32,000 bases of DNA from Patescibacteria group bacterium (GCA_041649575.1 JBAZMW010000005.1:81687-113686), one strand, 5' to 3'. Numbered from the stretch's first letter, positions 13,216 through 25,181 are shown. Made by a program: numbers and translations. Notes: generated by a model not told the origin, from the sequence alone.

Positions 13216-13234
13216 CGAATCTTAATAAAATTAA

Positions 13235-13260
13235 GCCCCGTTAAAAGCGGGGTTTTTTTT
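13235..13260 (+). terminator. Strong intrinsic terminator of rpoBC
   Basis: CCCCG / CGGGG stem (13236-13240 / 13248-13252), 7-nt loop TTAAAAG, followed by T8 (13253-13260). Confidence 0.8.
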
Positions 13261-13342: not shown

Positions 13343-13372
13343 TTGACATTAATATACAATTTTTGTTATGCT
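13343..13372 (+). promoter_or_regulatory. Candidate promoter of island module 1, TTGACA-18 nt-TATGCT
   Basis: TTGACA at 13343-13348 and TATGCT at 13367-13372. The -10 overlaps the ORF-track start codon at 13368, which argues for a downstream start. Confidence 0.45.
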
Positions 13373-13409
13373 GAAAGTAGTTGGGGAAAAGTTAAATTTT
13401 TATTATCTA

Positions 13410-13616
13410 ATGTTTAACTCGGAATATAATTTGTTGACAATGGAACAGGTGGCCCAGCGTCTGGGAGTTTCGTTAAAGACGATTTATCGCTGGATAGAAT
13501 CCGGCCAATTACCGGTATCTTTGGTTGGCCGGAGAACTTATCGTATTTTTGAACGTGATTTTGTCAGATTTGTTTATTCCAGACAAATCAACAGACACGT
13601 AAATAAAAAAAGATAA
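13410..13616 (+). CDS. Excisionase-family helix-turn-helix DNA-binding protein (HTH_17, MerR superfamily), paralog 1
   Basis: LTMEQVAQRLGVSLKTIYRWIESGQLPVSLVGRRTYRIFERDFVRFV matches the excisionase-type wHTH pattern (lt..E.A..L.vs..T.YrwI..G.lPa.kiG...yRi...dl..fl). The start is uncertain: ATG 13410 is preferred, with alternatives at 13368 (track) and 13440. Confidence 0.8.
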   Translation: MFNSEYNLLTMEQVAQRLGVSLKTIYRWIESGQLPVSLVGRRTYRIFERDFVRFVYSRQINRHVNKKR

Positions 13617-13627
13617 TTTTTAAAGAA

Positions 13628-14344
13628 ATGTTAAAACGAAGTAAAAAATTTATTTTACTGATGGCAGCGGTCGGCGTGTTGTTTTTTGGCGTTAATTTCT
13701 CCGGTGCCGCCATGAGTTCTGATAATTATCAGATTTGGGCGGACGTTATTTCCGTCGGCGGGATTGAGAAGGCTAGCTCCACTAATTATCGGATGCACAC
13801 CACCTTGGGCGAAGGAGCCAGTGGTCGCTTCTCCTCCAGCGGTGATTCGGGCCGAGCCGGCTTCAGAGAAATGCAAAAGTTTCATTTAACCTTGAGTCTC
13901 GGCGCCAGCGCTTTGGCCCTGGGCGAATTAAAAACAACAGAAACCAAGTCCGCCAGCCATACCTTAACCGTCGAATCAAATTCTGACACGGGCATCAGCG
14001 TCACTTTTTCTGGCAGCACTCTGGCTTGCGCCAGTTGCTCCGGCACCAATAGTGTCAGCGGCATCGGAGGCACCGCTGCCAGCTCGGCGATTGGCACCAG
14101 CCAGTTCGGCTTTAACTCGATTATTGATTTGAGCCAGAGCGCCTCGACTCCGCTGGCGGGCGCGGTGTCTCCTTATAACACTTCCGGCCAATACGCTTTT
14201 AGTAGCGGCTCACAGGTTATTAGCGCCACCACGGCAGTCAATCGAAGCGTTTTTAATATTAATTATATCGCCAACATCAATGGCAATGAAACGGGCGGCA
14301 GCTACAACACAACCATTACCTACACGGCGACTGCCAACTTTTAA
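13628..14344 (+). CDS. Secreted beta-rich surface protein, WxL-like / pilin-like (function unknown)
   Basis: Signal peptide MLKRSKKFILLMAAVGVLFFGVNFSGAA. Paired SS-x-NY motifs (SSDNYQIW, SSTNYRMH). Ser/Thr/Gly/Ala-rich body. C-terminal alternating beta-strand GGSYNTTITYTATANF, resembling the terminal strand of WxL-domain proteins and fimbrial subunits. 11 nt after the HTH gene. Confidence 0.6.
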   Translation: MLKRSKKFILLMAAVGVLFFGVNFSGAAMSSDNYQIWADVISVGGIEKASSTNYRMHTTLGEGASGRFSSSGDSGRAGFREMQKFHLTLSLGASALALGELKTTETKSASHTLTVESNSDTGISVTFSGSTLACASCSGTNSVSGIGGTAASSAIGTSQFGFNSIIDLSQSASTPLAGAVSPYNTSGQYAFSSGSQVISATTAVNRSVFNINYIANINGNETGGSYNTTITYTATANF

Positions 14345-14364
14345 TTAACAAATACTTAATCAAA

Positions 14365-15324
14365 ATGAGGATAAAAAAAATTTATATTTTACCGGCAATT
14401 TTGTTTCTGGCCATTATTTTGCCCAATTTGGCCAAGGCGTTCTCGGTTTCGCCGCCGATAATAGAGACAGATTTGAATCCCGGCCAATCTGGTCTAGAAA
14501 ATCTGGTTTTGTTTAACGAAACCGAACAGGAAGTTTTTTTAAACGGCTACGTAGAGACATTTAGGCCCAGAGGCGAGGCGGGCGAGGTGGAAGTGGTGCC
14601 ACCGGCTGTTTCCCAGCAGGCGGTTGCCTGGCTTAAATTGCCTGAAAATTCTCTAAGCTTGAAGCCGGGAGAAGAAAAAACAGTGCCTCTGATAATTAAC
14701 GTGTCCAAAACCGCCCAGGTTGGCGGCTATTATTTGGCGGTTATGTGGGAAACGTCGCTAGGGCCCAAAAAACAAACCAACCAGGTTCAGGTTTCCGGGC
14801 GGCTGGGCGTTTTGATTTTTTTGCGGGTTGAAGGCGCAGCCAAGGAAGAAATTTCTTTGAAGGATTTTCGGCTGGCAGAAAAAAAACAGGTGTTCGATCG
14901 TTTGCCGGTCGGTTTTGTGAGTCGCCTAGAAAACACCGGCAACGTTCATCTAAAACCAAAAGGATTAATTATCATCAAAAGTATTTTTGGCGTTGACGAG
15001 GTTTTGCCTTTTAACGAGGAGGAAAAAAATATCATGCCCCAGAGCATCAGAAGTTTTAACAATGACTGGGTTAAGGCCGGAGACAGGGCAAAGGCTGGTG
15101 GTTTTTGGTCGGAACTGAAGGCGGAACTAGGGCAATTTGCCTGCGGCCGGTTTTCGGCCCAGTTACAAGCGGAATACGGTCCAGATCATCAAAAAATAAA
15201 TTCGGAAAAAATTTATTTTTGGGTGTTGCCCTGGCGCCTCTTACTTTTAGCCGCAATCGGATTAATAATTTTTTTAGTTGCAACATTAACCTTAAGAAAA
15301 ATTAGCAAAAATAAGAGCGCTTAA
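14365..15324 (+). CDS. Cell-surface protein with signal peptide, Ig-like N-domain and C-terminal membrane anchor (DUF916/DUF3324, CscA-like)
   Basis: Signal peptide ...LPNLAKA/FSVSPPIIETDLNPGQSG. LVLFNETEQEVFLNGYV and KPGEEKTVPLIINVSKTAQVGGYYLAV fit the DUF916-type pattern. C-terminal TM LLLLAAIGLIIFLVATLTL plus basic tail RKISKNKSA. The family assignment is from memory of its pattern, not a search. Confidence 0.55.
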   Translation: MRIKKIYILPAILFLAIILPNLAKAFSVSPPIIETDLNPGQSGLENLVLFNETEQEVFLNGYVETFRPRGEAGEVEVVPPAVSQQAVAWLKLPENSLSLKPGEEKTVPLIINVSKTAQVGGYYLAVMWETSLGPKKQTNQVQVSGRLGVLIFLRVEGAAKEEISLKDFRLAEKKQVFDRLPVGFVSRLENTGNVHLKPKGLIIIKSIFGVDEVLPFNEEEKNIMPQSIRSFNNDWVKAGDRAKAGGFWSELKAELGQFACGRFSAQLQAEYGPDHQKINSEKIYFWVLPWRLLLLAAIGLIIFLVATLTLRKISKNKSA

Positions 15325-18300
15325 TGAAAAAAATATTTTTTTTAATAATCATTTTTATCGTTTTAACCAGCTTGATCTGGGCGGGTGTGGTTTTGGCTGT
15401 TAGCGAGAGTCGCGGCAGTAGTGTCAATATTAATGCCACCATTCCTACTTCCGGCGGCCCGCCGGGCTGTCCGCCGAATTGTCCGCCCAAGCCGGATTCT
15501 TTGGTAATCGACCAGATTTCGGCTGTCGGCTTCTGCACCTCGGCCACGGTTAACTGGCATACCTACCTTAGTCCCAGCGGCAAAGTAGCCAAAAGTACCG
15601 GCGTAGTCAGCTACTGGCCCAGTGGCCATCCAGAAGAAAAAGCTACAGTCAGCTCAACAGTGCCTTCGGAGTTTCACTCAGTGAATTTAAACGATTTAGA
15701 GCCACTGACTGCTTATGATTATGACATCACCGCTACCGCTGCAATCGGAGGAGCGTCTAGTGGCACCCTTAACTTCACTACCACTTGCGGCATCATTAAT
15801 GCTTCGATTGTCGCCGAGCCGGAAGAGCGGGGAGTGAAAATTATCGTCAGCTATCCCGACGACCCGGATATTAGCAAAGTGATTATCAGAAAAAAAATCA
15901 ACAGCGTTCCCCTTGATCAAAGCGATGGCGTTGAATTCTACTACGACGCGCAGCCGCATCCGCCTTTAAGCAGTGAGTTATTTTTTGACCCGCATTTAGC
16001 CGGTGATCCGGGGCAACGCGATTATGACAATTTTTCTAATTTGAATGATAATTACTGTTACGCGGTTTTTATTTGCAACAGCCACAATAACTGCTCCTCC
16101 GGTTCTTACGATTGCGCTCGCAGAGCCATACCAGAAGCCGATGGACTAATGGCTGTGCCCGGAAATGGGCGAATCGAGCTGCTCTGGTCCAATCCCGGCG
16201 ATAATAGCGCCAGCGATTTTATTTTTAGCAAGACGCGACTGATAAAAACCGGAGAGAATTGCTTGGCAGCTGACCCTACAGGAGGCGTGCTTCTAAGAGA
16301 AGGCGAGGCTACCGGCTATTTGGACGGCGCTTTGGAAAACAATCAGACTTATTATTACAAACTATTTGTCAAAAATAGCTATGGCGAATATTCCGACGGC
16401 TTATGCTTAAGAGCCGTGCCTTCGGCTCAGGCTCAAGCCAGGTGTATTAGCGGCGTTCGTTTGCAAAATGGCGACAAAAAAATAGAGGCTACTTGGATAA
16501 ATCCGGAAAATGAAGCCGGGGTTTTTGAGCTGGACAGTGTCCAGTGGCAGAGAGATTCTTCTTGTGTTGTCTCTGCCGGTAGCGGCCAGACCATTTACAG
16601 CGGCCTGGGAAATAGTTTTTCTGATACCAACGTTAATAACGGTTCTCTCTATGCTTATAGCAGTTTTGTAAATTATAATAATGATAGTACCGCCAGCTGC
16701 GGTTGTTTTTACGGCTTACCTGCGACAGAAACCGAGTTGCCAGAAGAAGTTTGTCCGGAGTGTTCGCTTAGTTTACAGCGGCCCAGCTTTAAATTTTATG
16801 TCAACTCCGGAGCCTTAGAACTTTTGGCCAACCAAAACAAACTAGACCTCCTGGCCGGCTACGATTTTTCAATCATCGCCGACCAAAGGGCTTTGCCTAA
16901 GCCGGTATCGCTTATGGTGGCCCAGCTTCAAGGCAAGAATTATTTTTTTTCGCTAAATAATTTACAGCAATCATATCAGGCTTCGCTAGCAACGCCTTTT
17001 AAGGAAGGAAGTTATAGTTTACAAATTACCACGGTTTACCAAGACAAAACCAAATCGGTGGAAACTTGGTATTTGATGATTTGGCCGCGCGGCGTGATCT
17101 TAGACGAAATCGGTCGTCCCATTAAAGGAGCCACTGTCTCGCTTTGGGCCGATAATGGCTCTTTGTCGGCCGGCCTGGGTTTTGCCAACCCCCAATCAAC
17201 CGATACTTTTGGATCATACGGTTTAATGGTGGCCAGTGGCAAGTATTATCTGGAAGTCGAATATAGGGGCTACCAAAAAGAGCGCTTGGCTGTCGAGATT
17301 AAAAACAACATTGTCAATGCCAACTTCAGGCTGATAAAAATAAAAAGTTTTTTGGAACAAGTTGTCGGGTCTTTGTCTAACTTGCTGCCGCCAGCCCGCC
17401 AAGCCAACAATTACATTGCTCCGGGCATAATGCTAATGGCTTTAATTAATACGGCGGCGGCTGTGCCTTTTTGGAATTTTGTTTATTATTTACAATATCT
17501 TTTCACCGAGCCGTTGGCTTGGCTGTTTAGGCGGCGGCGACAGGGCTGGGGAGTGGTCTTTAACTCTATCACTAAAAAACCGGTTGACCTGGCAGTAGTG
17601 CGGCTCTATGACCGTCAAGCGGGGCGGTTGTTGCGTTCACGGGTGACGGATAAGGAGGGAAGATACAGTTTTTTGGTGGGTCAGGGAGTTTATTACTTGG
17701 AGGTGATCAAGGCGGGATTTGTCTTTCCCTCGAACATTTTAAAAGGCGTTAATGAGGACAGGAGTTACACCGATATTTATCATGGTCAAAACATTGAAAT
17801 TAGAGACGACCAAAAAGGAATTATTATCGCCAACATACCTCTGGATCAAGAGGAACTAAAGATTACCGACAAACAGGTAATCAGTCGTGACTTTTGGAGA
17901 AAGGTTAAAGAGAATATTAGCGTTGTCAGCCCGATTTTAGCCATCATTTCTTTCGCAGTGTCGCCCACGATTTTGATTGGTTCTTTTACCATCTTGCATC
18001 TGATTTTGTATCTTTTCTTTAGAAGGCTGGCCAAAACCAGACAGGCCAAGCCCTGGGGCGTCATTTACAATAAAGACAATAAAAAGTCATTGGCTAAGTC
18101 GGTAGTTCGAATTATCGCGCCGGAATACAACCGGATGCTCGAAGCCCAGGTGACCGACAATTATGGGCGTTATGGTTTTTTGGTGGACAATAATATTTAT
18201 TATGTTACGGCCAACAAAGATGGTTACCGGGAGAAAAAGAGCGACGAGATTAATCTGGTTGGCAAAAAATCGAGCGAGGTGGTGGGGCAGGATTTGTCGC

Positions 18301-18527
18301 TGGAGCCGGTGAGCGGCAAGGGCGCAGTTGATTTTGGCGTCGGCTCGGAAACGGAAAAAACCACTGCAACGGAGGTTTTGGCTTCGCCCCAAGCGGCAGG
18401 TGGCCAGGATAATACCGCGCCAGAATCCAAGGAAGAAGCTAAGCAGCCGGACGAAATCGTCGCTGCCGCCGTTTCTGAAGTCAAAAGCGAAAACAAAGAA
18501 GTTATAAAAGAGGATTATCGTGGTTAA
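15324..18527 (+). CDS. Large polytopic surface protein: signal anchor, FN3-like domains, three CarboxypepD_reg-like domains separated by paired TM helices, acidic tail
   Basis: The ATG overlaps the upstream TAA (TAATG at 15322-15326). N-terminal hydrophobic helix. FN3-like signatures (LEPLTAYDYDITA, NQTYYYKLFVKNSYGEYS). Three motifs of type TD..G.Y.F.v..G.YYlev.k.GY at about 17090-17340, 17550-17800 and 18050-18260. Hydrophobic pairs at about 17410-17530 and 17920-18025. Confidence 0.7.
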   Translation: MKKIFFLIIIFIVLTSLIWAGVVLAVSESRGSSVNINATIPTSGGPPGCPPNCPPKPDSLVIDQISAVGFCTSATVNWHTYLSPSGKVAKSTGVVSYWPSGHPEEKATVSSTVPSEFHSVNLNDLEPLTAYDYDITATAAIGGASSGTLNFTTTCGIINASIVAEPEERGVKIIVSYPDDPDISKVIIRKKINSVPLDQSDGVEFYYDAQPHPPLSSELFFDPHLAGDPGQRDYDNFSNLNDNYCYAVFICNSHNNCSSGSYDCARRAIPEADGLMAVPGNGRIELLWSNPGDNSASDFIFSKTRLIKTGENCLAADPTGGVLLREGEATGYLDGALENNQTYYYKLFVKNSYGEYSDGLCLRAVPSAQAQARCISGVRLQNGDKKIEATWINPENEAGVFELDSVQWQRDSSCVVSAGSGQTIYSGLGNSFSDTNVNNGSLYAYSSFVNYNNDSTASCGCFYGLPATETELPEEVCPECSLSLQRPSFKFYVNSGALELLANQNKLDLLAGYDFSIIADQRALPKPVSLMVAQLQGKNYFFSLNNLQQSYQASLATPFKEGSYSLQITTVYQDKTKSVETWYLMIWPRGVILDEIGRPIKGATVSLWADNGSLSAGLGFANPQSTDTFGSYGLMVASGKYYLEVEYRGYQKERLAVEIKNNIVNANFRLIKIKSFLEQVVGSLSNLLPPARQANNYIAPGIMLMALINTAAAVPFWNFVYYLQYLFTEPLAWLFRRRRQGWGVVFNSITKKPVDLAVVRLYDRQAGRLLRSRVTDKEGRYSFLVGQGVYYLEVIKAGFVFPSNILKGVNEDRSYTDIYHGQNIEIRDDQKGIIIANIPLDQEELKITDKQVISRDFWRKVKENISVVSPILAIISFAVSPTILIGSFTILHLILYLFFRRLAKTRQAKPWGVIYNKDNKKSLAKSVVRIIAPEYNRMLEAQVTDNYGRYGFLVDNNIYYVTANKDGYREKKSDEINLVGKKSSEVVGQDLSLEPVSGKGAVDFGVGSETEKTTATEVLASPQAAGGQDNTAPESKEEAKQPDEIVAAAVSEVKSENKEVIKEDYRG

Positions 18528-18530
18528 ATT

Positions 18531-18560
18531 TTGTCAATTGAGAACAATTAAGTATATAAA
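18531..18560 (+). promoter_or_regulatory. Promoter-like box P1 (TTGTCAATTGAGAACA...TATA-rich -10)
   Basis: TTGTCA at 18531-18536, with TATATA/TATAAA 16-18 nt downstream. The first 16 nt are a 15/16 copy of the P2 box at 18644. Confidence 0.35.
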
Positions 18561-18643: not shown

Positions 18644-18673
18644 TTGACAATTGAGAACATAATCTTTTATAAT
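18644..18673 (+). promoter_or_regulatory. Promoter P2 of island module 2, TTGACA-18 nt-TATAAT
   Basis: TTGACA at 18644-18649 and TATAAT at 18668-18673. It gives a ~100-nt leader before the HTH-2 ATG. Confidence 0.5.
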
Positions 18674-18777: not shown

Positions 18778-18972
18778 ATGAGCAATCGGATTCTGACAAT
18801 TGAAGAAGTGGCCAAAACCATGAAGGTCAGTCTAAAAACTGTTTACCGCTGGATTAGTGCCGGCCAGTTGCCGGCTGCCAAAATTGGCTATAAAACCTAC
18901 CGAGTTTTTGAAGGCGATTTAATTAAATTTTTAAGGCGCCATATGTTTTCTTCGGCGCGCCGTCTAAGATAG
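18778..18972 (+). CDS. Excisionase-family helix-turn-helix DNA-binding protein (HTH_17, MerR superfamily), paralog 2
   Basis: LTIEEVAKTMKVSLKTVYRWISAGQLPAAKIGYKTYRVFEGDLIKFL. About 26/48 identical positions to paralog 1 by hand alignment. Confidence 0.85.
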   Translation: MSNRILTIEEVAKTMKVSLKTVYRWISAGQLPAAKIGYKTYRVFEGDLIKFLRRHMFSSARRLR

Positions 18973-18986
18973 AACAAACAACCGCC

Positions 18987-21900
18987 ATGTCTTTTTTAAC
19001 GATAGAAAAATTTACTCCTAACTACAAAACCAGAATTATTAAAAAGCTAGTTTTAGCTATAGTTTTGCTTGTCGTGCCCCTAGTGGTTTTGGCGGCTTGG
19101 GCTTTTTTGGGAATGATGACCAATTCGGAATTCTTTTTGGCCCAAGCCGCCGTCGGGATTAACAAACAAATAAATTATCAGGGCAAGATTGCCAACTCCA
19201 GCGGCAATAATTTAACCGACGGTAATTACAGTTTTAAATTTGAATTATACGATGCGCCGGATGCCGGCACCTTGCTTTGGAGCGAGGAATGGAAGACCGG
19301 CAGCGGGGCTGGTCCGGTGCAGTTAGTCGATAGTGTTTTTTCGGTGGCTCTGGGCACTTCGACGGCTTTGACCTCCAGTTTGTTTGCCAATGATAATTTA
19401 TATTTACAGGTCTATTTGGATGCTGACAGTAACGGCGTTTATGAAGAAACTTTTTCTCCAAGAAAAAGAATTACCGCCAGTCCCTATGCTTTTAATTCCG
19501 ATACGCTCGATGGTTATGACGCTACTACCACAGCCACAGCCAATAAGTTGTTGGTTTTAGACGGTAGCGCCGGTCTGACTTTAAATAGCGTGACCACCAC
19601 TGGTTCTTTTTATGCCGGCAGTTATGCTTCTTCCACCGGCGGGCTCTATAGCCAAGGCAACGGGCATTTTGGCGGGACTTTGACGGTTGATGGCAATGCC
19701 ACCACCAGCGGCCATTATTATGTTGGAGGCGATCTGACTGTCGACGACAATTTTTATGTCTTGGACAGCTCCAACGCCGCTGCATTATACAGCCTGAATC
19801 CAAGCTTGAATTTTTCTTTTCTGGCTTCCACCACCTTTACCAGTCTAAGCAATCATACTTACAGTTATACTTTCAATTCTTACCTTGATCCCAGCGCTGA
19901 TTCGAGCTATTACCACTATAATTTTTTAAACGCCATAAATATTAACTCCAATAACACCAAAAACATACAAGCATTAGTAGCCGACAGCAACGTGGTTGTT
20001 CATTATGGCACCGGCAATTTGACTTACGGTTATGGCCAATTGAGCACCGTGGAGTTAGCTGGCCTGGGCAACATAACCACGGCTAGCGGCGGCTGGTTTG
20101 AAGTCGCCAGTGGCGTGGATGTTGCGGCCGGTAATATTACCAACGCCTTGGGTGTTATGGGTAAGGTAAATAATGACGTTTATGGTGGCGCTATCACCAG
20201 CGCTCAAGCTATTTCGGGCATTATAAATAATGATGGCGGGACAATAACCGATGCTTATGGCCTAAGAATATACGTGCCCAGCGGTAGTGGGGTCATTAAT
20301 AATGACTATGGCGTTTATATCGAAAATCAAAATCGTGGCGGTAGCTTAAATTATAATATTTATTCCGCTGGTACCACGGGCCTTAATTATTTTGGCGGGC
20401 AGGTGGGCATTGCCACCACTACCCCCTGGTCTGGCTATGAACTAGCCGTTACTGGTGACGAAGTCTTGACGGGTAATCTCAAAGTCCTTGGCTACGGCCA
20501 ATTTAACAATGTCTCCACCACCGATACTCTCTATGTTGGCGGTTATGCCTCTACCACCGGGGGCCTCTATACCCAAAGCAATGGCTGGTTTGGCAGTGCC
20601 GTGACAGTTGGTTCTAAACTGGGCATTGCCACCACCACTCCCTGGGATAGCTACGAGTTAGCCATTACCGGTGACGCTATTTTGACGGGTAATCTCAAAG
20701 TGCTCGGCTACGGCCAATTCAACAATGTCTCCACCACCGATACCCTTTATGTGGGCGGCTATGCTTCCACCACCGGAGGATTATATACCCAGGGCAATGG
20801 GCATTTTGGTGGCAATCTCACAGTTGATAATAACGCCACCACCACCGGCTATCTCACGGTTGGCACTGCTCCCACGGGCGCCACTTTCTCCAGTGGCAAC
20901 CTAAACATCCAGAATAGCTTGGTAGTGGGAGGCGGCATCACTCTGGGCGGAGTCTACCGCGACACTTGGCCCGCCGGCAGCGTTGGCAGCGCCGGTAGTT
21001 TCTGGGCCACCACCTCTAACAGTCTGATAGGTTATCCCGACCTAAGCGGCTTCTATGCCATTGTGATTGGCGGATCAGCCACCACCTCCAACATTTCCAA
21101 CAAACTTAAATTAGAGGTAACCGGCGGCGACTTCGGCGTTGATTTGACCGATGAAACCTTCTTCGTGGACAGTACCAATAACAGTGTTGGCATTGCTACC
21201 ACCACTCCCTGGTCTGGCTATGAGCTGGCCATCACCGGTGATGAGGTTTTGACGGGTAATTTGTATGGTTTGGGATCGGCCACCACTAGTCAAAGTTTAT
21301 ATGTTGGCACTCAAATTAATGTGGCCACCTCTTCTCCCTGGTCTGGTTATGAACTGGCCCTGGCTGGCGACGCCGTTGTTTCTGGTAATTTTTATAACAA
21401 GGGCAACGCCACCACCACCGGCAGTCTTTATGCTAATGAGATTTTTTCTGCCGGCACCCAGCTTTTAGGCAGTGGCGCCGCTAGTGTTGATGCTTTGTCT
21501 GTTATTGGCTTGCACTCTGGTTACAGTGCCAATCTGGCCATTTATGCCAAGGATAGTGATGGCACGGATAACGTCAGTATAGTGGCAATCGGTAAAAACG
21601 CAAACGACCTAGCCAATAGAGAATTGTTTAGTCTGGGTTGGAACGCGGCGGGCACTTATGATATTAATACTTTCGCGGCTGGTAGCGGAGTGGTTCGTGA
21701 TTTACGGATTTATACCGGGAATAACAGCACTCAATTATACTTGGATTCCACTGGCGATGTCAGGATTCCCGACTTGAACTCCACCTCCAGCTATATTGGC
21801 AACCTCACTGTCTATAATAATGCCAATTTTAATTCCATTACCACCACCGACTCCCTCTACGTAGGCGGCTATGCCTCCTCCACAGGCGGCTTATTTACCA

Positions 21901-24900
21901 AAGGCAACGGGCATTTTGGCGGCAATTTAACAGTAGATGGCAATGTGACAACTACCGGCATTATTGACGTTCAACAATATCTCTGGAACTCTCTGGCTGA
22001 TTTGAGTGTTCAAGACGGACTAAGTGTCAGTGGCAACGCCACCACCAGCGGCTATCTTACGGTTGGCACTGCTCCCACGGGCGCCACTTTCTCCAGTGGC
22101 AATTTAAACATCCAAAACAGCTTGGTAGTGGGAGGCGGCATCACTCTGGGCGGAGTCTACCGCGACACTTGGCCAGCCGGCGGCGTTGGCAGCGCCGGCA
22201 GCTTTTGGGCCACCACCTCTAACAGTCTGATAGGTTATCCCGACCTAAGCGGTTTCTACGCTATTGTGATCGGTGGCGCAGCCACCACTTCTAATATTTC
22301 TAACAATCTTAAATTAGAGGTAACCGGCGGCGACTTTGGCGTTGACTTAACCGATGAAACCTTCTTCGTGGACAGCACCAACAACAGTGTAGGCATTGCC
22401 ACCACCACCCCTTGGTCTGGCTACGAACTAGCCATCACCGGTGACGCTGTTTTGACGGGCAATCTCAAAGTGCTTGGCTACGGCCAATTCAACAATGTCT
22501 CCACCACCGATACTCTCTACGTGGGCGGCTATGCCTCCACCACCGGGGGCCTCTATACCCAAAGCAATGGCTGGTTTGGCAGTGCCGTGACAGTTGGTTC
22601 TAAACTGGGCATTGCCACCACTACCCCTTGGGATAGCTATGAACTAGCCATAACCGGTGACGCTGTTTTGACTGGTAATCTCAAAGTACTTGGCTACGGC
22701 CAATTCAACAACGTCTCCACCACTGATACTCTCTACGTGGGCGGCTATGCTTCCACCACCGGAGGATTATATACCCAGGGATTATTAAGAGGTGGCGGAG
22801 GGCTGACTGCAGAAGGCACGATTAGTTTGCCCAGTAATTCAATTACCGACGCCATGGTGGTCAACACTATCACTGCTTCTAATTATTTACCATTAACCGG
22901 TGGCACTTTAACTGGTTTGCTCTCCGGCACCTCGGCCAGTTTCTCCAATGCTGTCACCAGCACCAAGTATATAATGATTGGTTCGGGGACGGTTAACAAT
23001 CTTGATTATGTCGGCGATCTTTATGTGTCTGACGATGTAGAAATTGACGGCTCACTCTGGGTGCCGAACGCGACCACAACTAATTCTTTGTATGCCGGCA
23101 GTAATATTAGTATTGGCATTAATCCGACTCCATATTACGCTCTTTCGGTACTGGGCAGTGCCACTACTTCCGGAGTTTCGGTGGTTGGCACTAATGTATA
23201 TGTTGGCTACGCTAGCGGCAGCGATGACGATTATCTTTATTTTGACGCCGGCAATGAATCGTTGCTTTGGGATAACAGCCCTGGAGAGTTTGTTTTAAGT
23301 GACGATTTGCAAATTCAGGGCAACGCCACCACCACGGGAAAATTAGTGGTGGGCAACGGAACTACGGTGGATAATTCCGGCAGGTATGGTATTTTTTCAA
23401 GCTCTTTGGAAAGCGTGGCATTTCCGGGGGGCAGTTATGGGTTGTATGCTTCCAGCACCAACACCGGCCCGGCTGGTTGGGCGGCAGGTGTTTTTGGAAA
23501 AGGAGCCGGCACCAATAGTGCTGTTGGAGCTTACGGTGTTTTTGGTGAAGCTATTGATTATAATGTTGGTTATAATTACGGCGTTTATGGCAAAGCCGCT
23601 AGCGCGGCTACTACTAATTACGGCGTTTATGGCTTGGCCTCGGGAGCCAGTGATTACGCCGGTTATTTTGAAGGCAATTTAGGGGTTACGGCCACCACCA
23701 CAATTACAAAGGGATTAGTGGTTGATACAAGCAGCTTGTTTGTTAATTATGATACAAACAGGGTTGGCGTTGGCACCACCACGCCCAGCCGGCCGCTTTC
23801 GGTTGTTGGACAGATATTTACCTCGCAAGACGGCAGCGATCCGTCTCTGGTTAGTTTTGGCGGGATGGTGGTGATGGATAATAGTAATGGCCAGGGCTGG
23901 TATATTGCCGGCAGATCGCAGGACACCACTGGCCTAAGAGGCAGTTTAAAATTTGATTCATGCTCTGACTTTGACTGCGGAGCTGGCGGAACTCTCAATA
24001 TTATGGAGTTAACCAGAAGCGGCAGGGTCGGCATTGCCACCACCACGCCGCAGTATCGTTTGCAGGTAGGCAGTATTATTGGCAACACCTTTTTTTCAGT
24101 GGACAGTCTGGGCAATGCCACTACCAGCGCCAACTTGACGGTTAAAAATTTACCCAATCAAACCACCGGCAGCGCCGCCAATGTTTTTGTGGACAGTAAT
24201 GGCCTGTTATTTAAGTCGTCTTCCTCTCTTCGTTATAAAACAGATATAAATTATGGCGGCGTTGATGGTAGTATTTTGTATCAACTGCAGCCAGTATCTT
24301 TCAAAGATAAAAATACCGGAGTTGATTATATTGGTTTTATTGCCGAAGATGTGGCGCTGGTCGAACCAAGACTGGTGTCCTATGACGCCAGCGGCAATCC
24401 TGACGGTTTGCATTATGGCAATTTTTCCGCCCTGATCACCAAAGCCGTACAGGAGTTGTCGGCCAGGGTCGATGCTTTAGAGGTTGATGGTTCTGCCGAC
24501 GCTGCCAGTGGTGGATTGCCAGTGGTGGATTCTCCTGGCAGTAACCTCGATAGCTTGACCGTGCAACAGGCGGCTAATTTCTATGGCACGATTACGGTTT
24601 ATGGGGAGGCGGGTTTTGTTTCCAAGGTCACTTTTGAGAAAGAAGTGGAGTTTAAGGATCATTTAACGGTAGCTGGCGATACTGCCGGCACGGCTATTAT
24701 TACGGCCGGAGCAACCAGCACGGAAATTTTATTTGGCAAGGAATACCAGGAAGCGCCAAAAGTGGTGGCTAATCTACAAATAAAAGGCGCACCGATTTTT
24801 GTCCAGTGGGGTATTGCCGATAAATCAACCAAGGGTTTCAGGATAGTCTTGGCAGAGCCGGTTTTGGCAGATTTGGAATTTGATTGGGTGGCTTTGGCCA

Positions 24901-25127
24901 ATAAAGCTGGCGGCCAGGTGGCCGGAGAGCAAGAGCAGGCAGTGGTTGTCGGTTGTACCAATCCCGAGGCCACTAATTACAATCCGGCTGCCACCCAGGA
25001 TGATGGCTCTTGCATCCTGCAGCCAGCGGAAACTCCCCCGGCCGATCAAGCCGGCAGTCAAGATGCCGCCGCGCCGCCAGTGGAGACGCCGCTTCCCCAG
25101 AGCGATAATCCAGCGCCGACCGGTTAA
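18987..25127 (+). CDS. Giant (2046 aa) N-terminally membrane-anchored fibre protein: tail-fibre-like repeats, Peptidase_S74 intramolecular chaperone domain, lectin-like and Pro-rich C-terminal extension
   Basis: TM LVLAIVLLVVPLVVLAAWAFLG. N-terminal INYQGKIANSSGNNLTDGNYSFKFELYDA...LWSE...VFSVALG module. Many IATTTPWSGYELAITGD and YVGGYASTTGGLYTQGNGHFGG repeats. S74-type segment SSSLRYKTDI...LQPVSFKDK...IGFIAEDVALVEPRLV...LHYGNFSALITKAVQELSARVDAL (about 24216-24485). Confidence 0.85.
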   Translation: MSFLTIEKFTPNYKTRIIKKLVLAIVLLVVPLVVLAAWAFLGMMTNSEFFLAQAAVGINKQINYQGKIANSSGNNLTDGNYSFKFELYDAPDAGTLLWSEEWKTGSGAGPVQLVDSVFSVALGTSTALTSSLFANDNLYLQVYLDADSNGVYEETFSPRKRITASPYAFNSDTLDGYDATTTATANKLLVLDGSAGLTLNSVTTTGSFYAGSYASSTGGLYSQGNGHFGGTLTVDGNATTSGHYYVGGDLTVDDNFYVLDSSNAAALYSLNPSLNFSFLASTTFTSLSNHTYSYTFNSYLDPSADSSYYHYNFLNAININSNNTKNIQALVADSNVVVHYGTGNLTYGYGQLSTVELAGLGNITTASGGWFEVASGVDVAAGNITNALGVMGKVNNDVYGGAITSAQAISGIINNDGGTITDAYGLRIYVPSGSGVINNDYGVYIENQNRGGSLNYNIYSAGTTGLNYFGGQVGIATTTPWSGYELAVTGDEVLTGNLKVLGYGQFNNVSTTDTLYVGGYASTTGGLYTQSNGWFGSAVTVGSKLGIATTTPWDSYELAITGDAILTGNLKVLGYGQFNNVSTTDTLYVGGYASTTGGLYTQGNGHFGGNLTVDNNATTTGYLTVGTAPTGATFSSGNLNIQNSLVVGGGITLGGVYRDTWPAGSVGSAGSFWATTSNSLIGYPDLSGFYAIVIGGSATTSNISNKLKLEVTGGDFGVDLTDETFFVDSTNNSVGIATTTPWSGYELAITGDEVLTGNLYGLGSATTSQSLYVGTQINVATSSPWSGYELALAGDAVVSGNFYNKGNATTTGSLYANEIFSAGTQLLGSGAASVDALSVIGLHSGYSANLAIYAKDSDGTDNVSIVAIGKNANDLANRELFSLGWNAAGTYDINTFAAGSGVVRDLRIYTGNNSTQLYLDSTGDVRIPDLNSTSSYIGNLTVYNNANFNSITTTDSLYVGGYASSTGGLFTKGNGHFGGNLTVDGNVTTTGIIDVQQYLWNSLADLSVQDGLSVSGNATTSGYLTVGTAPTGATFSSGNLNIQNSLVVGGGITLGGVYRDTWPAGGVGSAGSFWATTSNSLIGYPDLSGFYAIVIGGAATTSNISNNLKLEVTGGDFGVDLTDETFFVDSTNNSVGIATTTPWSGYELAITGDAVLTGNLKVLGYGQFNNVSTTDTLYVGGYASTTGGLYTQSNGWFGSAVTVGSKLGIATTTPWDSYELAITGDAVLTGNLKVLGYGQFNNVSTTDTLYVGGYASTTGGLYTQGLLRGGGGLTAEGTISLPSNSITDAMVVNTITASNYLPLTGGTLTGLLSGTSASFSNAVTSTKYIMIGSGTVNNLDYVGDLYVSDDVEIDGSLWVPNATTTNSLYAGSNISIGINPTPYYALSVLGSATTSGVSVVGTNVYVGYASGSDDDYLYFDAGNESLLWDNSPGEFVLSDDLQIQGNATTTGKLVVGNGTTVDNSGRYGIFSSSLESVAFPGGSYGLYASSTNTGPAGWAAGVFGKGAGTNSAVGAYGVFGEAIDYNVGYNYGVYGKAASAATTNYGVYGLASGASDYAGYFEGNLGVTATTTITKGLVVDTSSLFVNYDTNRVGVGTTTPSRPLSVVGQIFTSQDGSDPSLVSFGGMVVMDNSNGQGWYIAGRSQDTTGLRGSLKFDSCSDFDCGAGGTLNIMELTRSGRVGIATTTPQYRLQVGSIIGNTFFSVDSLGNATTSANLTVKNLPNQTTGSAANVFVDSNGLLFKSSSSLRYKTDINYGGVDGSILYQLQPVSFKDKNTGVDYIGFIAEDVALVEPRLVSYDASGNPDGLHYGNFSALITKAVQELSARVDALEVDGSADAASGGLPVVDSPGSNLDSLTVQQAANFYGTITVYGEAGFVSKVTFEKEVEFKDHLTVAGDTAGTAIITAGATSTEILFGKEYQEAPKVVANLQIKGAPIFVQWGIADKSTKGFRIVLAEPVLADLEFDWVALANKAGGQVAGEQEQAVVVGCTNPEATNYNPAATQDDGSCILQPAETPPADQAGSQDAAAPPVETPLPQSDNPAPTG
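20406..20794 (+). repeat. Repeat block X (two tandem 216-bp / 72-aa units), copy A
   Basis: Units start at 20406 and 20622 (GGCATTGCCACCAC...). The block recurs at 22392-22780, offset exactly 1986 bp (in frame), with roughly 90% identity by eye and identical runs of >80 nt. Confidence 0.85.
20832..21262 (+). repeat. Repeat block Y (~430 bp), copy A
   Basis: AACGCCACCACC...GGCTATCT.ACGGTTGGCACTGCTCCCACGGGCGCC... recurs at 22035-22465, offset 1203 bp (in frame). Only 3 aa differences were seen (S/G, S/A, K/N) against many synonymous changes. Confidence 0.85.
22035..22465 (+). repeat. Repeat block Y, copy B (order permuted: here Y precedes X)
   Basis: Direct comparison with 20832-21262. In copy A the order is X-X-Y. 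In copy B it is Y-X-X, with the end of Y merging into the first X unit. Confidence 0.85.
22392..22780 (+). repeat. Repeat block X, copy B
   Basis: Units start at 22392 and 22608. Similarity to copy A ends at ACCCAGGG (20794 / 22780). Confidence 0.85.
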
Positions 25128-25181
25128 TGCCTTTTGCCTCAGGGATCAGAAAGTGCTAAAATTATAATTCGTTCACGAGCT

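What the first reader, a model, noticed from the sequence alone, without database searches (positions are those of the whole stretch)
18987..25127. 2046-aa membrane-anchored fibre built from phage-tail-fibre-like modules in a cellular locus
The protein starts with a single N-terminal TM (about 19047-19110) and a beta-sandwich-like head (INYQGKIANSSGNNLTDGNYSFKFELYDAPDAGTLLWSE...). About 1600 aa follow, made of short motifs typical of trimeric tail-fibre or needle proteins: (V/I)GI(A/G)TTTP...L.V.G, YVGGYASSTGGLY(T/S)QGNGHFGG.LTVDGNATT.G, and runs of G.YG..G in 23400-23650. It then has a clear Peptidase_S74-type intramolecular chaperone segment. No other phage gene is nearby and its operon leader is an HTH regulator. 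The polarity (anchor at the N-terminus, folding nucleus at the C-terminus) predicts a long fibre projecting from the cell. This is a good candidate for contact with a host or prey cell.
Basis: partly seen in the sequence, partly recalled or inferred. Interest (0 to 1): 0.7.

Follow-up and report, generated by a model that had tools for sequence, protein, structure and literature searches.

The report
Secreted phage-style fibre of an ultrasmall bacterium
This intact 2046-residue gene from a Patescibacteria (CPR) genome most likely encodes a secreted three-chain surface fibre related to the prey-recognition fibres of Bdellovibrio, and it sits next to pilus-type genes, so it is a good candidate for how these tiny parasitic bacteria grip their host cells.

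Summary
The ORF at 18987-25127 is real. It is GenBank MFA5029951.1, named "tail fiber domain-containing protein", from a Patescibacteria MAG. It lies between rpoBC and ftsK/recA, and there is no prophage.

1. The N-terminal hydrophobic segment is followed by a family-wide AxA site directly before the head. It is probably a cleaved signal peptide, not an anchor.
2. The head is homologous to the N-domain of Bdellovibrio MAT fibres (24 of 25 relatives match). It has no phage counterpart.
3. The S74 chaperone keeps its Ser1746/Lys1751 pair and matches solved chaperone domains at E=1e-11. It is internal. After it come an H-type-lectin-like domain, a cysteine-bracketed motif and a proline-rich tail.

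A syntenic orthologue carries a Peptidase_G2 chaperone in place of S74. The shaft is unrelated between orthologues.

The gene lies next to Pam-pilus-like genes (a pilin-domain protein, a WxLIP-like membrane protein and a 1067-aa membrane protein). This linkage recurs in about 24 loci across CPR lineages. A small HTH gene precedes the fibre gene in all six loci inspected directly.

Verdict: a CPR variant of MAT-type chimeric fibres, probably a host-binding adhesin. Cleavage, trimer formation and anchoring are inferred, not shown.

The parts
18987..25127 (+). Fibre gene, 2046 aa; GenBank MFA5029951.1, named 'tail fiber domain-containing protein'
18987..19148 (+). N-terminal leader, aa 1-54. It has a basic n-region with the conserved FLTIEKFTP motif, a hydrophobic core at aa 21-44, and an AQA|A site at aa 52-54/55. 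It is probably a cleaved signal peptide; a retained signal-anchor is not excluded.
19149..19526 (+). Conserved head, aa 55-180, a MAT_N-like beta-sandwich
   Evidence: AF2 pLDDT above 90 for aa ~62-165. NF053851 Bdello_MAT_N at E=3.8e-8, and 24 of 25 relatives match it. The head profile finds 65,998 protein clusters. No specific PDB or viral fold match. No phage sequence match.
19527..24155 (+). Mosaic repetitive shaft, aa 181-1723, rich in G/T/S/N. It carries the VGIATTTP-type and YASSTGGLYTQG-type motifs. It is not conserved between syntenic orthologues.
   Evidence: two segments have no phage match
20403..20918 (+). Internal repeat block (72-aa period); second copy at 22389-22904, 91% nt identity
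   Evidence: (family D1)
20832..21131 (+). Internal repeat block; second copy at 22035-22334, 92% nt identity
   Evidence: (family D4)
24156..24482 (+). Peptidase_S74-type intramolecular chaperone, aa 1724-1832. Predicted catalytic Ser1746 (nt 24222-24224) and Lys1751 (nt 24237-24239).
   Evidence: the pair is kept in all aligned relatives
24549..24905 (+). Conserved post-chaperone domain, aa 1855-1973. A beta-rich stretch (FYGTITVYGEAGF...) is followed by an H-type-lectin-like sandwich at aa ~1899-1970.
   Evidence: Foldseek: HPA 2CCV at 5e-4 (prob 1.0), 4Q56 at 4e-4, and C-terminal domains of tailspikes and R-pyocin fibres. Pfam H_lectin at E=0.04. The domain follows both S74-type and G2-type chaperones in relatives.
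24954..25013 (+). Cysteine-bracketed motif CTNPEATNYNPAATQDDGSC, aa 1990-2009
   Evidence: The same motif is tandemly repeated in other secreted proteins, P0058 and P0074.
25014..25124 (+). Proline-rich C-terminal tail, aa 2010-2046, with no TM segment and no LPXTG motif
18778..18972 (+). 64-aa HTH_17 / excisionase-family DNA-binding protein, 14 nt upstream of the fibre gene
   Evidence: PF12728 at 6.8e-15; TIGR01764 at 8.4e-13. An HTH_17 gene sits just upstream of the fibre gene in 13 further cassettes, and an HTH_3 gene does in L004 and L005.
18644..18673 (+). Consensus sigma-70-type promoter (12 of 12 positions). Its -35 hexamer lies inside the repeat TTGACAATTGAGAAC; a second copy of the repeat is at 18531-18545.
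13628..14344 (+). 238-aa secreted protein with a Pam-pilin C-terminal domain (PamT-like)
   Evidence: NF058581 at 90.3 bits, above the cutoff of 55. NF058579 PamT at 81 bits, below the cutoff of 240. Signal-peptide-like N-terminus.
14365..15324 (+). 319-aa WxLIP-like protein with an N-terminal signal sequence and a C-terminal TM helix. This is the layout described for the PamC/PamD chaperones.
   Evidence: PF06030 in 9 of 13 homologues, best E=1.1e-7. PDB EfmWxLIP1 9I25 at 1.3e-3. TM segments. Preprint description.
15324..18527 (+). 1067-aa membrane protein with an N-terminal signal sequence, fn3-like and CarboxypepD_reg domains, and hydrophobic segments near aa 698-720 and 865-900. It is a possible membrane platform for the fibre.
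   Evidence: It is linked to the fibre gene in many loci. A p1067-like part and the head lie in one ORF in P0227, P0028, L027 and L032.
13368..13616 (+). Second HTH_17 gene (82 aa), directly ahead of the Pam-like genes
   Evidence: promoter-like site at 13343 and the rpoC terminator at 13233-13255

Best explanation
The gene most likely encodes a Sec-exported, homotrimeric surface fibre of the MAT ('mosaic adhesive trimer') type, adapted to a Patescibacteria cell.

**Shown:**
- The domain order is leader, conserved MAT_N-like beta-sandwich head, ~1540-aa repetitive mosaic shaft, S74 chaperone with an intact Ser1746/Lys1751 pair, lectin-like beta-sandwich, cysteine-bracketed motif, and proline-rich tail.
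- The gene is chromosomal. It is syntenic in related genomes and lies next to Pam-pilus-type genes and an HTH gene.

**Inferred mechanism:**
1. The leader is removed after Ala54.
2. Three chains associate from the C-terminal end, nucleated by the chaperone and probably by the lectin-like domain, which belongs to a fold that normally forms trimers. The shaft then zips up towards the N-terminus.
3. The chaperone cuts at Ser1746 and releases the C-terminal ~300 aa.
4. This exposes the lineage-specific end of the shaft as the binding tip.
5. The conserved head holds the fibre at the cell surface. It probably docks on products of the neighbouring genes (the 1067-aa membrane protein, the PamT-like pilin or the WxLIP-like protein).
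6. The variable shaft and tip then bind the surface of the host organism.

Using the ~0.04 nm per residue seen for the tip of the Bdellovibrio fibre protein Bd2133, the fibre would be roughly 60-90 nm long. This is a rough estimate.
For: **Cellular context.** rpoB, rpoC, ftsK, recA and efp flank the locus. The same order recurs in L001 and L003, where RpoC is 73-78% identical; RecA is 85% identical in L001.

**Head homology to MAT_N.** The query matches NF053851 at E=3.8e-8. Of 25 relatives, 24 match, with a best E of 1.4e-12. As in MATs, the domain is a ~130-aa beta-rich domain directly after the signal peptide, with no PDB homologue.

**Signal-peptide pattern.** Of 156 N-terminal-head proteins, 154 have a hydrophobic core and 131 have [AVS]xA just before the head.

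**S74 chaperone.** The family profile matches solved chaperone domains at 1e-11. The catalytic pair is conserved. There are matches in 26 phage genomes.

**Interchangeable chaperones.** The syntenic orthologue P0002 has Peptidase_G2 (26.1 bits, cutoff 25; phi29 gp12 3GQH at 2.4e-4) followed by the same C-terminal domain. Among 108 long relatives, 40 carry S74 and 45 carry G2.

**Mosaic evolution.** Between syntenic orthologues only the first 208 aa (67% identity) and scattered pieces of the fibre align. Neighbouring genes are 50-85% identical over their full length.

**Linkage to Pam-type genes.** It is seen in about 24 loci from Buchananbacteria, Uhrbacteria, Moraniibacteria and Saccharimonadales. 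True PamT equivalogs (267 bits) lie beside head-bearing genes in L024 and L028. A 2026 preprint notes that a 'tail fibre-like protein' co-localises with the pam operon.
Against: - Nothing has been tested experimentally. The sequence comes from a MAG with an unknown host.
- The query scores below curated cutoffs for Peptidase_S74 (19.3 against 22 bits) and for Bdello_MAT_N (33 against 60 bits).
- Only monomer models were run. The trimeric state is inferred from the families involved.
- The query's hydrophobic core is 24 residues long and its n-region carries a conserved motif. This would also suit a retained signal-anchor.
- If the chaperone cuts, the conserved lectin-like domain, cysteine motif and proline-rich tail are discarded. 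That is hard to reconcile with their conservation unless they act before cleavage or as a separate product.
- The head-docking partner is inferred from gene linkage alone. The apparent fusions (P0227, P0028) keep a leader-like segment before the head and may be gene-call read-throughs.
Confidence: 0.6

Rival explanations
1. The N-terminal hydrophobic helix is not cleaved and anchors the fibre in the cytoplasmic membrane. After the C-terminal piece is cut off, the fibre projects from the cell by its own anchor.
For: The protein has a single hydrophobic segment with a long core of 24 residues, aa 21-44. A conserved n-region motif, FLTIEKFTP, is shared by close relatives. An uncleaved anchor would explain how the fibre stays on the cell after the chaperone cut.
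Against: An AxA-type site lies directly before the conserved head in 131 of 156 relatives. Many of these have short, textbook signal peptides, for example MKKLWKIVLVLAIFAVNFNMAWA|AAGINRK. The homologous MAT fibres are described as having a signal peptide followed by the head. No signal-peptide predictor was available, so this was not tested directly.
Confidence: 0.25
2. The fibre is a component of the Pam-type pilus itself. It could be the distal adhesin carried on a filament built by donor-strand exchange, or it could be joined to the PamT-like pilin. In this reading it is not a separate fibre sitting on the cell body.
For: The fibre gene is tightly and widely linked to Pam pilin-domain and chaperone-like genes. 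A preprint notes the co-localisation. The head is an Ig-like sandwich.
Against: This window has no major pilin of the PamA/PamB type, only one PamT-like gene. A three-chain fibre does not fit easily on a single-file filament built by strand exchange. No donor strand or incomplete Ig fold was identified in the head. No complex modelling could be run.
Confidence: 0.2
3. The protein is mainly an enzyme-bearing spike. Like phage tailspikes and endosialidases, it would degrade a host surface polymer to open the host envelope, rather than act as a passive adhesin.
For: S74 and G2 chaperones are typical of tailspikes and depolymerases. Examples are the endosialidase, phi29 gp12 and the Dpo31 tailspike chaperone domain hit at 1.3e-4. 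The C-terminal domain resembles tailspike C-terminal domains from Pam1, LKA1 gp49 and Sf6.
Against: No catalytic domain was detected. The only hit is Pectinesterase at E=0.15, which is noise. The shaft is made of short fibre-type repeats, not one long beta-helix domain.
Confidence: 0.1
4. The gene is a remnant of a prophage or tailocin, that is, a phage receptor-binding protein left in the chromosome.
For: It has an S74 chaperone shared with phage tail fibres. PGAP names it a tail fiber domain protein. The upstream gene is of the excisionase HTH family.
Against: - No phage structural, packaging, lysis or integrase gene occurs in 32 kb.
- The position between rpoC and ftsK/recA is conserved in genomes whose RpoC is only 72-78% identical.
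- The head, shaft and C-terminal domain have no match in 50,697 phage genomes.
- The head family has about 66,000 clusters, almost always with the domain right after a leader.
Confidence: 0.03

Closest known systems
Bdellovibrio bacteriovorus MAT (mosaic adhesive trimer) chimeric fibre proteins (Caulton et al. 2024, PMC10769870; NCBIfam NF053851)
   Same: - Signal peptide, then a conserved ~130-aa beta-rich N-domain with no PDB homologue.
- A long trimeric fibre made of mosaic parts.
- A C-terminal S74 chaperone with the SDxxxK-type pair in some members and other endings in the rest.
- VG..xxP...L-type loops before the chaperone.
- Several related genes per genome in some CPR genomes (two in L002; three contigs of MHIM01).
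- The organism lives at the expense of other cells.

   Different: - The host organism is a monoderm, ultrasmall Patescibacterium, not a diderm predator.
- The score is below the NCBIfam cutoff (33 against 60 bits).
- The protein is about twice as long.
- The S74 domain is not terminal. A lectin-like domain, a cysteine motif and a proline-rich tail follow it.
- Orthologues swap S74 for a Peptidase_G2 chaperone.
- The gene is linked to an HTH gene and to Pam-pilus-type genes.
Phage tail fibres and tailspikes with a C-terminal S74 intramolecular chaperone (K1F endosialidase 3GW6, T5 pb1 4UW8, S16 gp37 6F45)
   Same: The chaperone domain is homologous, with a profile E of 1e-11 and 36-44% identity to phage genes. 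The Ser/Lys pair is present.
   Different: This is not a virion protein and not part of a phage gene module. It has an export leader. The head, shaft and C-terminal domain have no phage sequence match. The chaperone is internal.
Myelin regulatory factor MYRF (ICA domain, 7DC3)
   Same: It is the known case of an S74-type domain placed inside a cellular protein, where cleavage separates two functional halves.
   Different: MYRF is a eukaryotic membrane-bound transcription factor. Its membrane helix is C-terminal to the cut. There is no fibre shaft of this kind.
phi29 gp12 pre-neck appendage autochaperone / Peptidase_G2 (3GQH, PF11962)
   Same: It is the alternative chaperone found at the same position in the syntenic orthologue P0002 and in 45 of 108 long relatives. 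The DYAEYF start of the domain is shared.
   Different: It is absent from the window's own protein. In this family a coiled-coil-like stretch and the lectin-like domain follow it.
The 'tail fibre-like protein' beside the pam operon of CPR bacteria (Troman et al. 2026 preprint, 10.64898/2026.03.03.709456)
   Same: This is probably the same gene family. Head-bearing fibre genes lie beside true PamT equivalogs, Pam pilins and chaperone-like genes in Saccharimonadales loci. They lie beside PamT-like and WxLIP-like genes here.
   Different: The preprint only notes the co-localisation in one sentence. It gives no architecture, family assignment or role. This window lacks PamA/PamB-type major pilins.
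H-type lectins (Helix pomatia agglutinin 2CCV, discoidin II) and lectin-like C-terminal domains of tailspikes and R-pyocin fibres
   Same: The predicted fold of aa ~1899-1970 matches (Foldseek 4e-4 to 5e-3, prob 1.0). These domains form trimers and often bind sugars at fibre tips.
   Different: The Pfam score is below threshold (14.5 against 24 bits). The sugar-binding residues were not examined. Here the domain lies beyond the predicted self-cleavage site.
WxL / WxLIP cell-surface loci of Gram-positive bacteria (EfmWxLIP1, 9I25; PF06030)
   Same: The 319-aa neighbour matches the WxLIP peptidoglycan-binding domain. It has the same layout of signal sequence plus C-terminal TM, and sits beside a small secreted protein and a large surface protein.
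   Different: The matches are weak (1e-7 and 1.3e-3). No WxL domain was detected. The small partner carries a Pam-pilin domain instead.

Membership tests
Peptidase_S74 intramolecular chaperone proteins | Sequence match to the S74 / ICD domain | tested here: met
   The family profile matches 6F45 at 1e-11, 8JOV at 1.2e-11 and MYRF 7DC3 at 1.8e-5. tblastn finds tail-fibre genes in 26 phage genomes.
Peptidase_S74 intramolecular chaperone proteins | Pfam PF13884 score at or above the gathering cutoff (22 bits) for this sequence | tested here: not met
   13.8 bits on the whole protein and 19.3 bits on the excised segment. Many relatives carry a precomputed PF13884 hit.
Peptidase_S74 intramolecular chaperone proteins | Catalytic Ser ... 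Lys pair (S-x4-K, 'SDxxxK') | tested here: met
   S1746-S-L-R-Y-K1751. Both residues are kept in all aligned S74-type relatives.
Peptidase_S74 intramolecular chaperone proteins | The chaperone forms the C-terminal end and is the only part released | tested here: not met
   Another 214 aa follow the domain, including a conserved lectin-like domain.
Peptidase_S74 intramolecular chaperone proteins | Self-cleavage and chaperone-dependent trimer formation | not testable with these tools
   This needs expression of the wild type against S1746A or K1751A. Only monomer AF2 could be run.
MAT chimeric fibre family (Bdellovibrio) | Conserved ~130-aa beta-rich N-domain directly after the signal peptide | tested here: met
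   AF2 gives a sandwich at aa 62-165 with pLDDT above 90. NF053851 matches at E=3.8e-8, and 24 of 25 relatives match. The head starts at residue 55 after the leader.
MAT chimeric fibre family (Bdellovibrio) | NCBIfam NF053851 score at or above the curated cutoff (60 bits) | tested here: not met
   33.3 bits on the whole protein and 39 bits on the head alone. The model is a Bdellovibrio subfamily model.
MAT chimeric fibre family (Bdellovibrio) | Cleavable signal peptide | tested here: inconclusive
   The AQA|A site and the family-wide AxA pattern favour cleavage. The 24-residue core is long, and no predictor was available.
MAT chimeric fibre family (Bdellovibrio) | Trimeric fibre ending in S74 or in an alternative tip | tested here: inconclusive
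   S74 is present, and G2 is present in orthologues. The trimeric state was not modelled. An extra domain lies beyond the chaperone.
MAT chimeric fibre family (Bdellovibrio) | Display on the cell surface and a role in recognising the target cell | not testable with these tools
   Needs localisation and genetics.
Phage tail fibre (virion component) | Encoded within a phage or tailocin structural gene module | tested here: not met
   Housekeeping genes lie on both sides and no phage family was found in the neighbours. The chromosomal position is conserved.
Pam pilus system (neighbouring genes 13628-18527) | Pam pilin C-terminal domain (NF058581, cutoff 55) | tested here: met
   The 238-aa protein scores 90.3 bits.
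Pam pilus system (neighbouring genes 13628-18527) | PamT equivalog (NF058579, cutoff 240) | tested here: not met
   81.4 bits here. Saccharimonadales neighbours of head-bearing genes reach 267 bits.
Pam pilus system (neighbouring genes 13628-18527) | Membrane-anchored PapD/FimC-like chaperone (PamC/PamD) | tested here: inconclusive
   The 319-aa protein has a signal sequence and a C-terminal TM, as described for PamC/PamD. Its detectable similarity is to WxLIP.
Pam pilus system (neighbouring genes 13628-18527) | [quoted passage not shown] | tested here: not met
   Only one pilin-domain gene lies in the window. Two-domain pilins of 356-364 aa occur in the Saccharimonadales loci.
H-type lectin domain | H-type lectin fold | tested here: met
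   Foldseek gives 2CCV at 5e-4 and 4Q56 at 4e-4, prob 1.0, target TM 0.57-0.58. The model pLDDT is 62-88 in this region.
H-type lectin domain | Pfam PF09458 at or above the cutoff (24 bits), and the sugar-binding residues | tested here: not met
   14.5 bits, E=0.04. The binding residues were not examined.

The most novel reading that the evidence does not exclude
The fibre may be the host-range determinant of CPR bacteria, mounted on Pam-type machinery. In this reading its MAT_N head docks on the neighbouring PamT-like pilin, WxLIP-like protein or 1067-aa membrane platform. The result would be a hybrid organelle: a pilus-type anchor carrying a trimeric receptor-binding fibre that is matured by a phage-type chaperone. 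The interchangeable self-cleaving cassette (S74 or G2, plus the lectin-like domain) would be released as a separate trimeric lectin with its own role, for example priming or marking the host surface.
Probability: 0.2. Interest if true: 0.8.

Novelty: new variant of a known kind. Interest (0 to 1): 0.6.

Why it matters
How the very abundant, ultrasmall Patescibacteria find and hold their host cells is largely unknown. Type IV pili and the newly described Pam pili are the only molecular leads in the papers read here.

This locus points to a third element. It is a large family, with about 66,000 clusters sharing the head domain. Its members are secreted fibres related to Bdellovibrio MAT fibres, and their shafts are not conserved between syntenic genomes. 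The fibre genes sit beside pilus-type genes across several CPR classes.

That gives concrete, testable candidates for host specificity in culturable Saccharibacteria and Mycosynbacter.

It also shows two unusual design features:
- A self-cleaving chaperone placed inside the protein, ahead of a conserved lectin-like domain.
- Exchange of two unrelated chaperone classes at one orthologous locus.

Tried and rejected
- **Prophage or tailocin origin.** Rejected. All neighbours are housekeeping or surface-protein genes, and PHROGs gave only weak S74-related hits.
- **RNA elements.** Rfam and tRNA scans of the window found nothing.
- **Whole-protein PDB search.** It found only noise. A family profile was needed.
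- **Self-BLAST of the whole protein.** It returned nothing useful. Chunked BLAST was used instead.
- **Genome scan with the 25-sequence head alignment.** A 6-sequence alignment worked, but it favours close relatives and did not test Bdellovibrio genomes.
- **AlphaFold-database fold search (afdb50).** The library was unavailable, so fold-level comparison with Bdellovibrio MAT models was not done.
- **Head against PDB and viral structure libraries.** Only generic Ig-like matches.
- **A possible pilin-type leader.** I considered whether the N-terminal FLTIE motif marks a type IV pilin-like leader. I rejected this because a charged stretch separates it from the hydrophobic core, and the motif is confined to close relatives.
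- **Fusion evidence.** Proteins combining a p1067-like part with the head (P0227, P0028) keep a leader-like segment with an AxA site before the head. They may be merged gene calls, so I count them only as adjacency.
- **Literature.** Searches found no characterisation of these CPR proteins beyond one sentence in the Pam preprint.

Full report
**1. The observation**

The window holds an uninterrupted ORF at 18987-25127 (+) of 2046 aa. The identical protein is in GenBank as MFA5029951.1, 'MAG: tail fiber domain-containing protein [Patescibacteria group bacterium]', on a 114-kb contig.

The protein is rich in G, T, S and N. It has one hydrophobic segment in all, with a core at aa 21-44.

The shaft also contains large, recent internal duplications, aa 473-760 against 971-1262. 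They are 96-98% identical at the protein level and 91-92% at the DNA level.

**2. Context**

The neighbours are housekeeping genes:
- Upstream: ruvA, typA, a Mur ligase, rpoB and rpoC.
- Downstream: ftsK, an HTH_25 gene, recA, efp and rpsF.

There are no phage structural, packaging, lysis or integration genes, no tRNA and no Rfam match.

The same order, rpoB-rpoC-[three genes]-HTH-fibre, recurs in L001 and L003. There RpoC is 73-78% identical. In L001 ftsK and recA follow the fibre gene directly, and RecA is 85% identical. In L003 a glycosyltransferase cluster lies between the fibre gene and ftsK. In L002 the fibre gene comes before the three genes. The prophage or tailocin alternative is therefore rejected.

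**3. The N-terminus**

Residues 55-165 model as a confident beta-sandwich (pLDDT above 90). The model has only generic Ig-like matches in the PDB and in viral structure predictions. The head has no sequence match in 50,697 phage genomes.

NCBIfam places the head with NF053851, 'Bdello_MAT_N', at E=3.8e-8. Of 25 family heads, 24 match, with a best E of 1.4e-12. All the scores seen are below that subfamily model's cutoff.

The published MAT family of Bdellovibrio has the same layout (PMC10769870). A signal peptide is followed by a conserved ~130-aa beta-rich domain without PDB homologues, then a trimeric mosaic fibre. Thirteen members end in an S74 domain and eight do not.

A profile of the head finds 65,998 protein clusters at E<=1e-3, of which 988 are at E<=1e-30. 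Lengths range up to 5122 aa. The domain starts at median residue 39.

Of 156 such proteins, 154 have an upstream hydrophobic core. In 131 an [AVS]xA motif lies within 10 residues before the head. The query reads ...FFLAQA|AVGINKQINYQGK. I therefore read the 'TM' as a probable cleaved signal peptide. The long core of 24 residues and the conserved FLTIEKFTP n-region leave a retained anchor possible.

**4. The C-terminus**

The S74 assignment holds at family level. A profile of 11 relatives matches the chaperone domains of phage S16 gp37 (6F45, 1e-11), 8JOV (1.2e-11) and MYRF (7DC3, 1.8e-5). The segment hits tail-fibre or minor-tail genes in 26 phages. It is 52% identical to ~500-aa proteins from metagenomes that end with this chaperone segment.

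On the single sequence, Pfam stays below its cutoff. Ser1746 and Lys1751 occupy the catalytic S-x4-K positions and are kept in all aligned relatives.

The chaperone is not terminal. After it come:
- a linker;
- a conserved beta-rich stretch;
- a domain whose model matches H-type lectins (Helix agglutinins at 4e-4 to 5e-4, prob 1.0, target TM 0.57-0.58) and the C-terminal domains of tailspikes and R-pyocin fibres, with a weak Pfam H_lectin hit at E=0.04;
- a 20-aa cysteine-bracketed motif;
- a proline-rich tail.

This C-terminal domain has no phage sequence match.

**5. Chaperone swapping and mosaic evolution**

The syntenic orthologue P0002 (L001) lacks S74. It carries a Peptidase_G2 self-cleaving domain instead. 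The Pfam score is 26.1 bits against a cutoff of 25. The profile matches the phi29 gp12 autochaperone 3GQH at 2.4e-4 and the chaperone domain of tailspike Dpo31 at 1.3e-4. The same lectin-like domain follows it.

Among 108 relatives of at least 800 aa, 40 have S74, 45 have G2, 52 have the C-terminal domain and 20 have none of these.

Between the window and L001 only the first 208 aa (67% identity) and scattered repeat pieces of the fibre align. The flanking genes align end to end at 50-85% identity. Two shaft segments have no phage match.

So only the chaperone is shared with phages. The head is a cellular domain. The shaft is a lineage-specific mosaic.

**6.

- The 238-aa gene (13628-14344) has a Pam-pilin C-terminal domain (NF058581, 90 bits against a cutoff of 55). 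It resembles PamT over its full length, at 81 bits, below the equivalog cutoff.
- The 319-aa gene (14365-15324) has a signal sequence and a C-terminal TM helix. Its family matches the WxLIP peptidoglycan-binding domain (9 of 13 members, best E=1.1e-7) and EfmWxLIP1 (9I25, 1.3e-3). [quoted passage not shown]
- The 1067-aa gene (15324-18527) is a membrane protein with fn3-like and CarboxypepD_reg domains.

Home-made HMMs were run on 33 genome loci found with the head. These come from Buchananbacteria, Moraniibacteria, Uhrbacteria, Saccharimonadales and other Patescibacteria. The 5 loci of closer relatives were scanned in the same run. Homologues of these genes lie beside the fibre gene in about 24 loci. 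In L024 and L028 the neighbours are true PamT equivalogs (267 bits) plus a second Pam pilin.

The preprint states that a 'tail fibre-like protein' consistently co-localises with the pam operon, and says nothing more about it.

A small HTH gene sits immediately upstream of the fibre gene in all six loci inspected directly. It is HTH_17 in the window, L001, L002 and L003, and HTH_3 in L004 and L005. The HMM scan finds HTH_17 just upstream in 13 further cassettes.

The window has a consensus promoter at 18644-18673. Its -35 hexamer lies in a repeated motif, TTGWCAATTGAGAAC, which occurs twice here and once in L013.

**7. Mechanism**

Shown: the domain order, the homologies, the conserved catalytic pair, the chromosomal synteny, the mosaic divergence and the linkage to Pam-type genes.

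Inferred:
- export by Sec and leader cleavage;
- trimer formation nucleated from the C-terminal chaperone and lectin-like domain;
- self-cleavage at Ser1746, releasing about 300 aa and exposing the variable shaft end;
- retention at the cell surface through the head, perhaps by docking on products of the neighbouring genes;
- binding of a host cell.

The main unexplained point is why a conserved lectin-like domain, cysteine motif and proline-rich tail lie beyond the cleavage site. They may act only during assembly, or the released piece may have its own function.

**8. Comparison and novelty**

The protein works like, and is distantly homologous to, the MAT fibres. It fails the curated cutoffs for MAT_N and for Peptidase_S74, so I do not file it as a formal member of either model.

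It differs from MATs in several ways:
- the host lineage and cell envelope type;
- its size;
- the internal position of the chaperone;
- the added C-terminal domains;
- the S74/G2 exchange at one locus;
- the linkage to an HTH gene and to Pam-type genes.

No paper in the library characterises these CPR proteins. I rate it a new variant of a known kind, with moderate to high interest.

Noticed in passing
window 13368-13616: A second HTH_17 gene (82 aa) sits directly ahead of the three Pam-like genes. It has its own promoter-like site at 13343, after the rpoC terminator (13233-13255). L001 and L003 have no room for such a gene there: the gap after rpoC is only ~100 nt.
   Followed up: partly
window 18531-18545 and 18644-18658; L013 150-164: The direct repeat TTGWCAATTGAGAAC has a palindromic core, TCAATTGA. 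It occurs twice in the intergenic region ahead of the HTH-fibre pair. The second copy supplies the -35 hexamer of a perfect promoter. One more copy lies about 300 nt upstream of the HTH_17 gene in L013. It may be an operator for the HTH protein.
   Followed up: partly
window 24954-25013; P0058, P0074, P0095, P0003, P0006: The ~20-aa cysteine-bracketed motif GCT(D/N)PxAxNYNPxAxxDDGSC is a mobile repeat. There are about six tandem copies in a Magasanikbacteria thermonuclease (P0058), several in P0074 and P0095, and two in some fibre relatives. Pfam found nothing over those repeats.
   Followed up: partly
L002 21908-25286: A second cassette of HTH_17 (53 aa) plus a head-bearing gene (1079 aa, with LVIVD repeats and no S74, G2 or C-terminal domain) lies on the other side of the three Pam-like genes. 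The pilus-type genes are therefore flanked by two different fibre cassettes.
   Followed up: no
P0028 (2285 aa, relative): This family member appears to carry an intein with an inserted NYN domain (precomputed PF14890 and PF01936; the sequence runs ...AGHCVTGDTKL ... DIVAHNTYLSG...) inside the shaft of a secreted fibre. This would be an unusual place for an intein.
   Followed up: no
L008, L012, L013, L016, L018, L026, L029, L031: Genome records labelled Gammaproteobacteria, Methylomirabilis or Acidoferrum carry typical CPR-type fibre plus Pam-like loci. These are probably mis-binned or mislabelled MAG contigs.
   Followed up: no
window 25134-27692: The mechanical ftsK ORF starts at a TTG codon 6 nt after the fibre stop. 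The alignment to the L001 orthologue begins at residue 30, so the true start is probably about 90 nt further downstream.
   Followed up: no
L003 14212-22545: In this relative a cluster of glycosyltransferase, methyltransferase and PMT-family genes lies between the fibre gene and ftsK. It may glycosylate surface proteins.
   Followed up: no
P0227, P0028; L027 1-2559, L032 5110-8820: These single ORFs combine a p1067-like membrane part with the head and fibre. In P0227 and P0028 a leader-like segment with an AxA site is still present just before the head. They could be true fusions or merged gene calls.
   Followed up: partly
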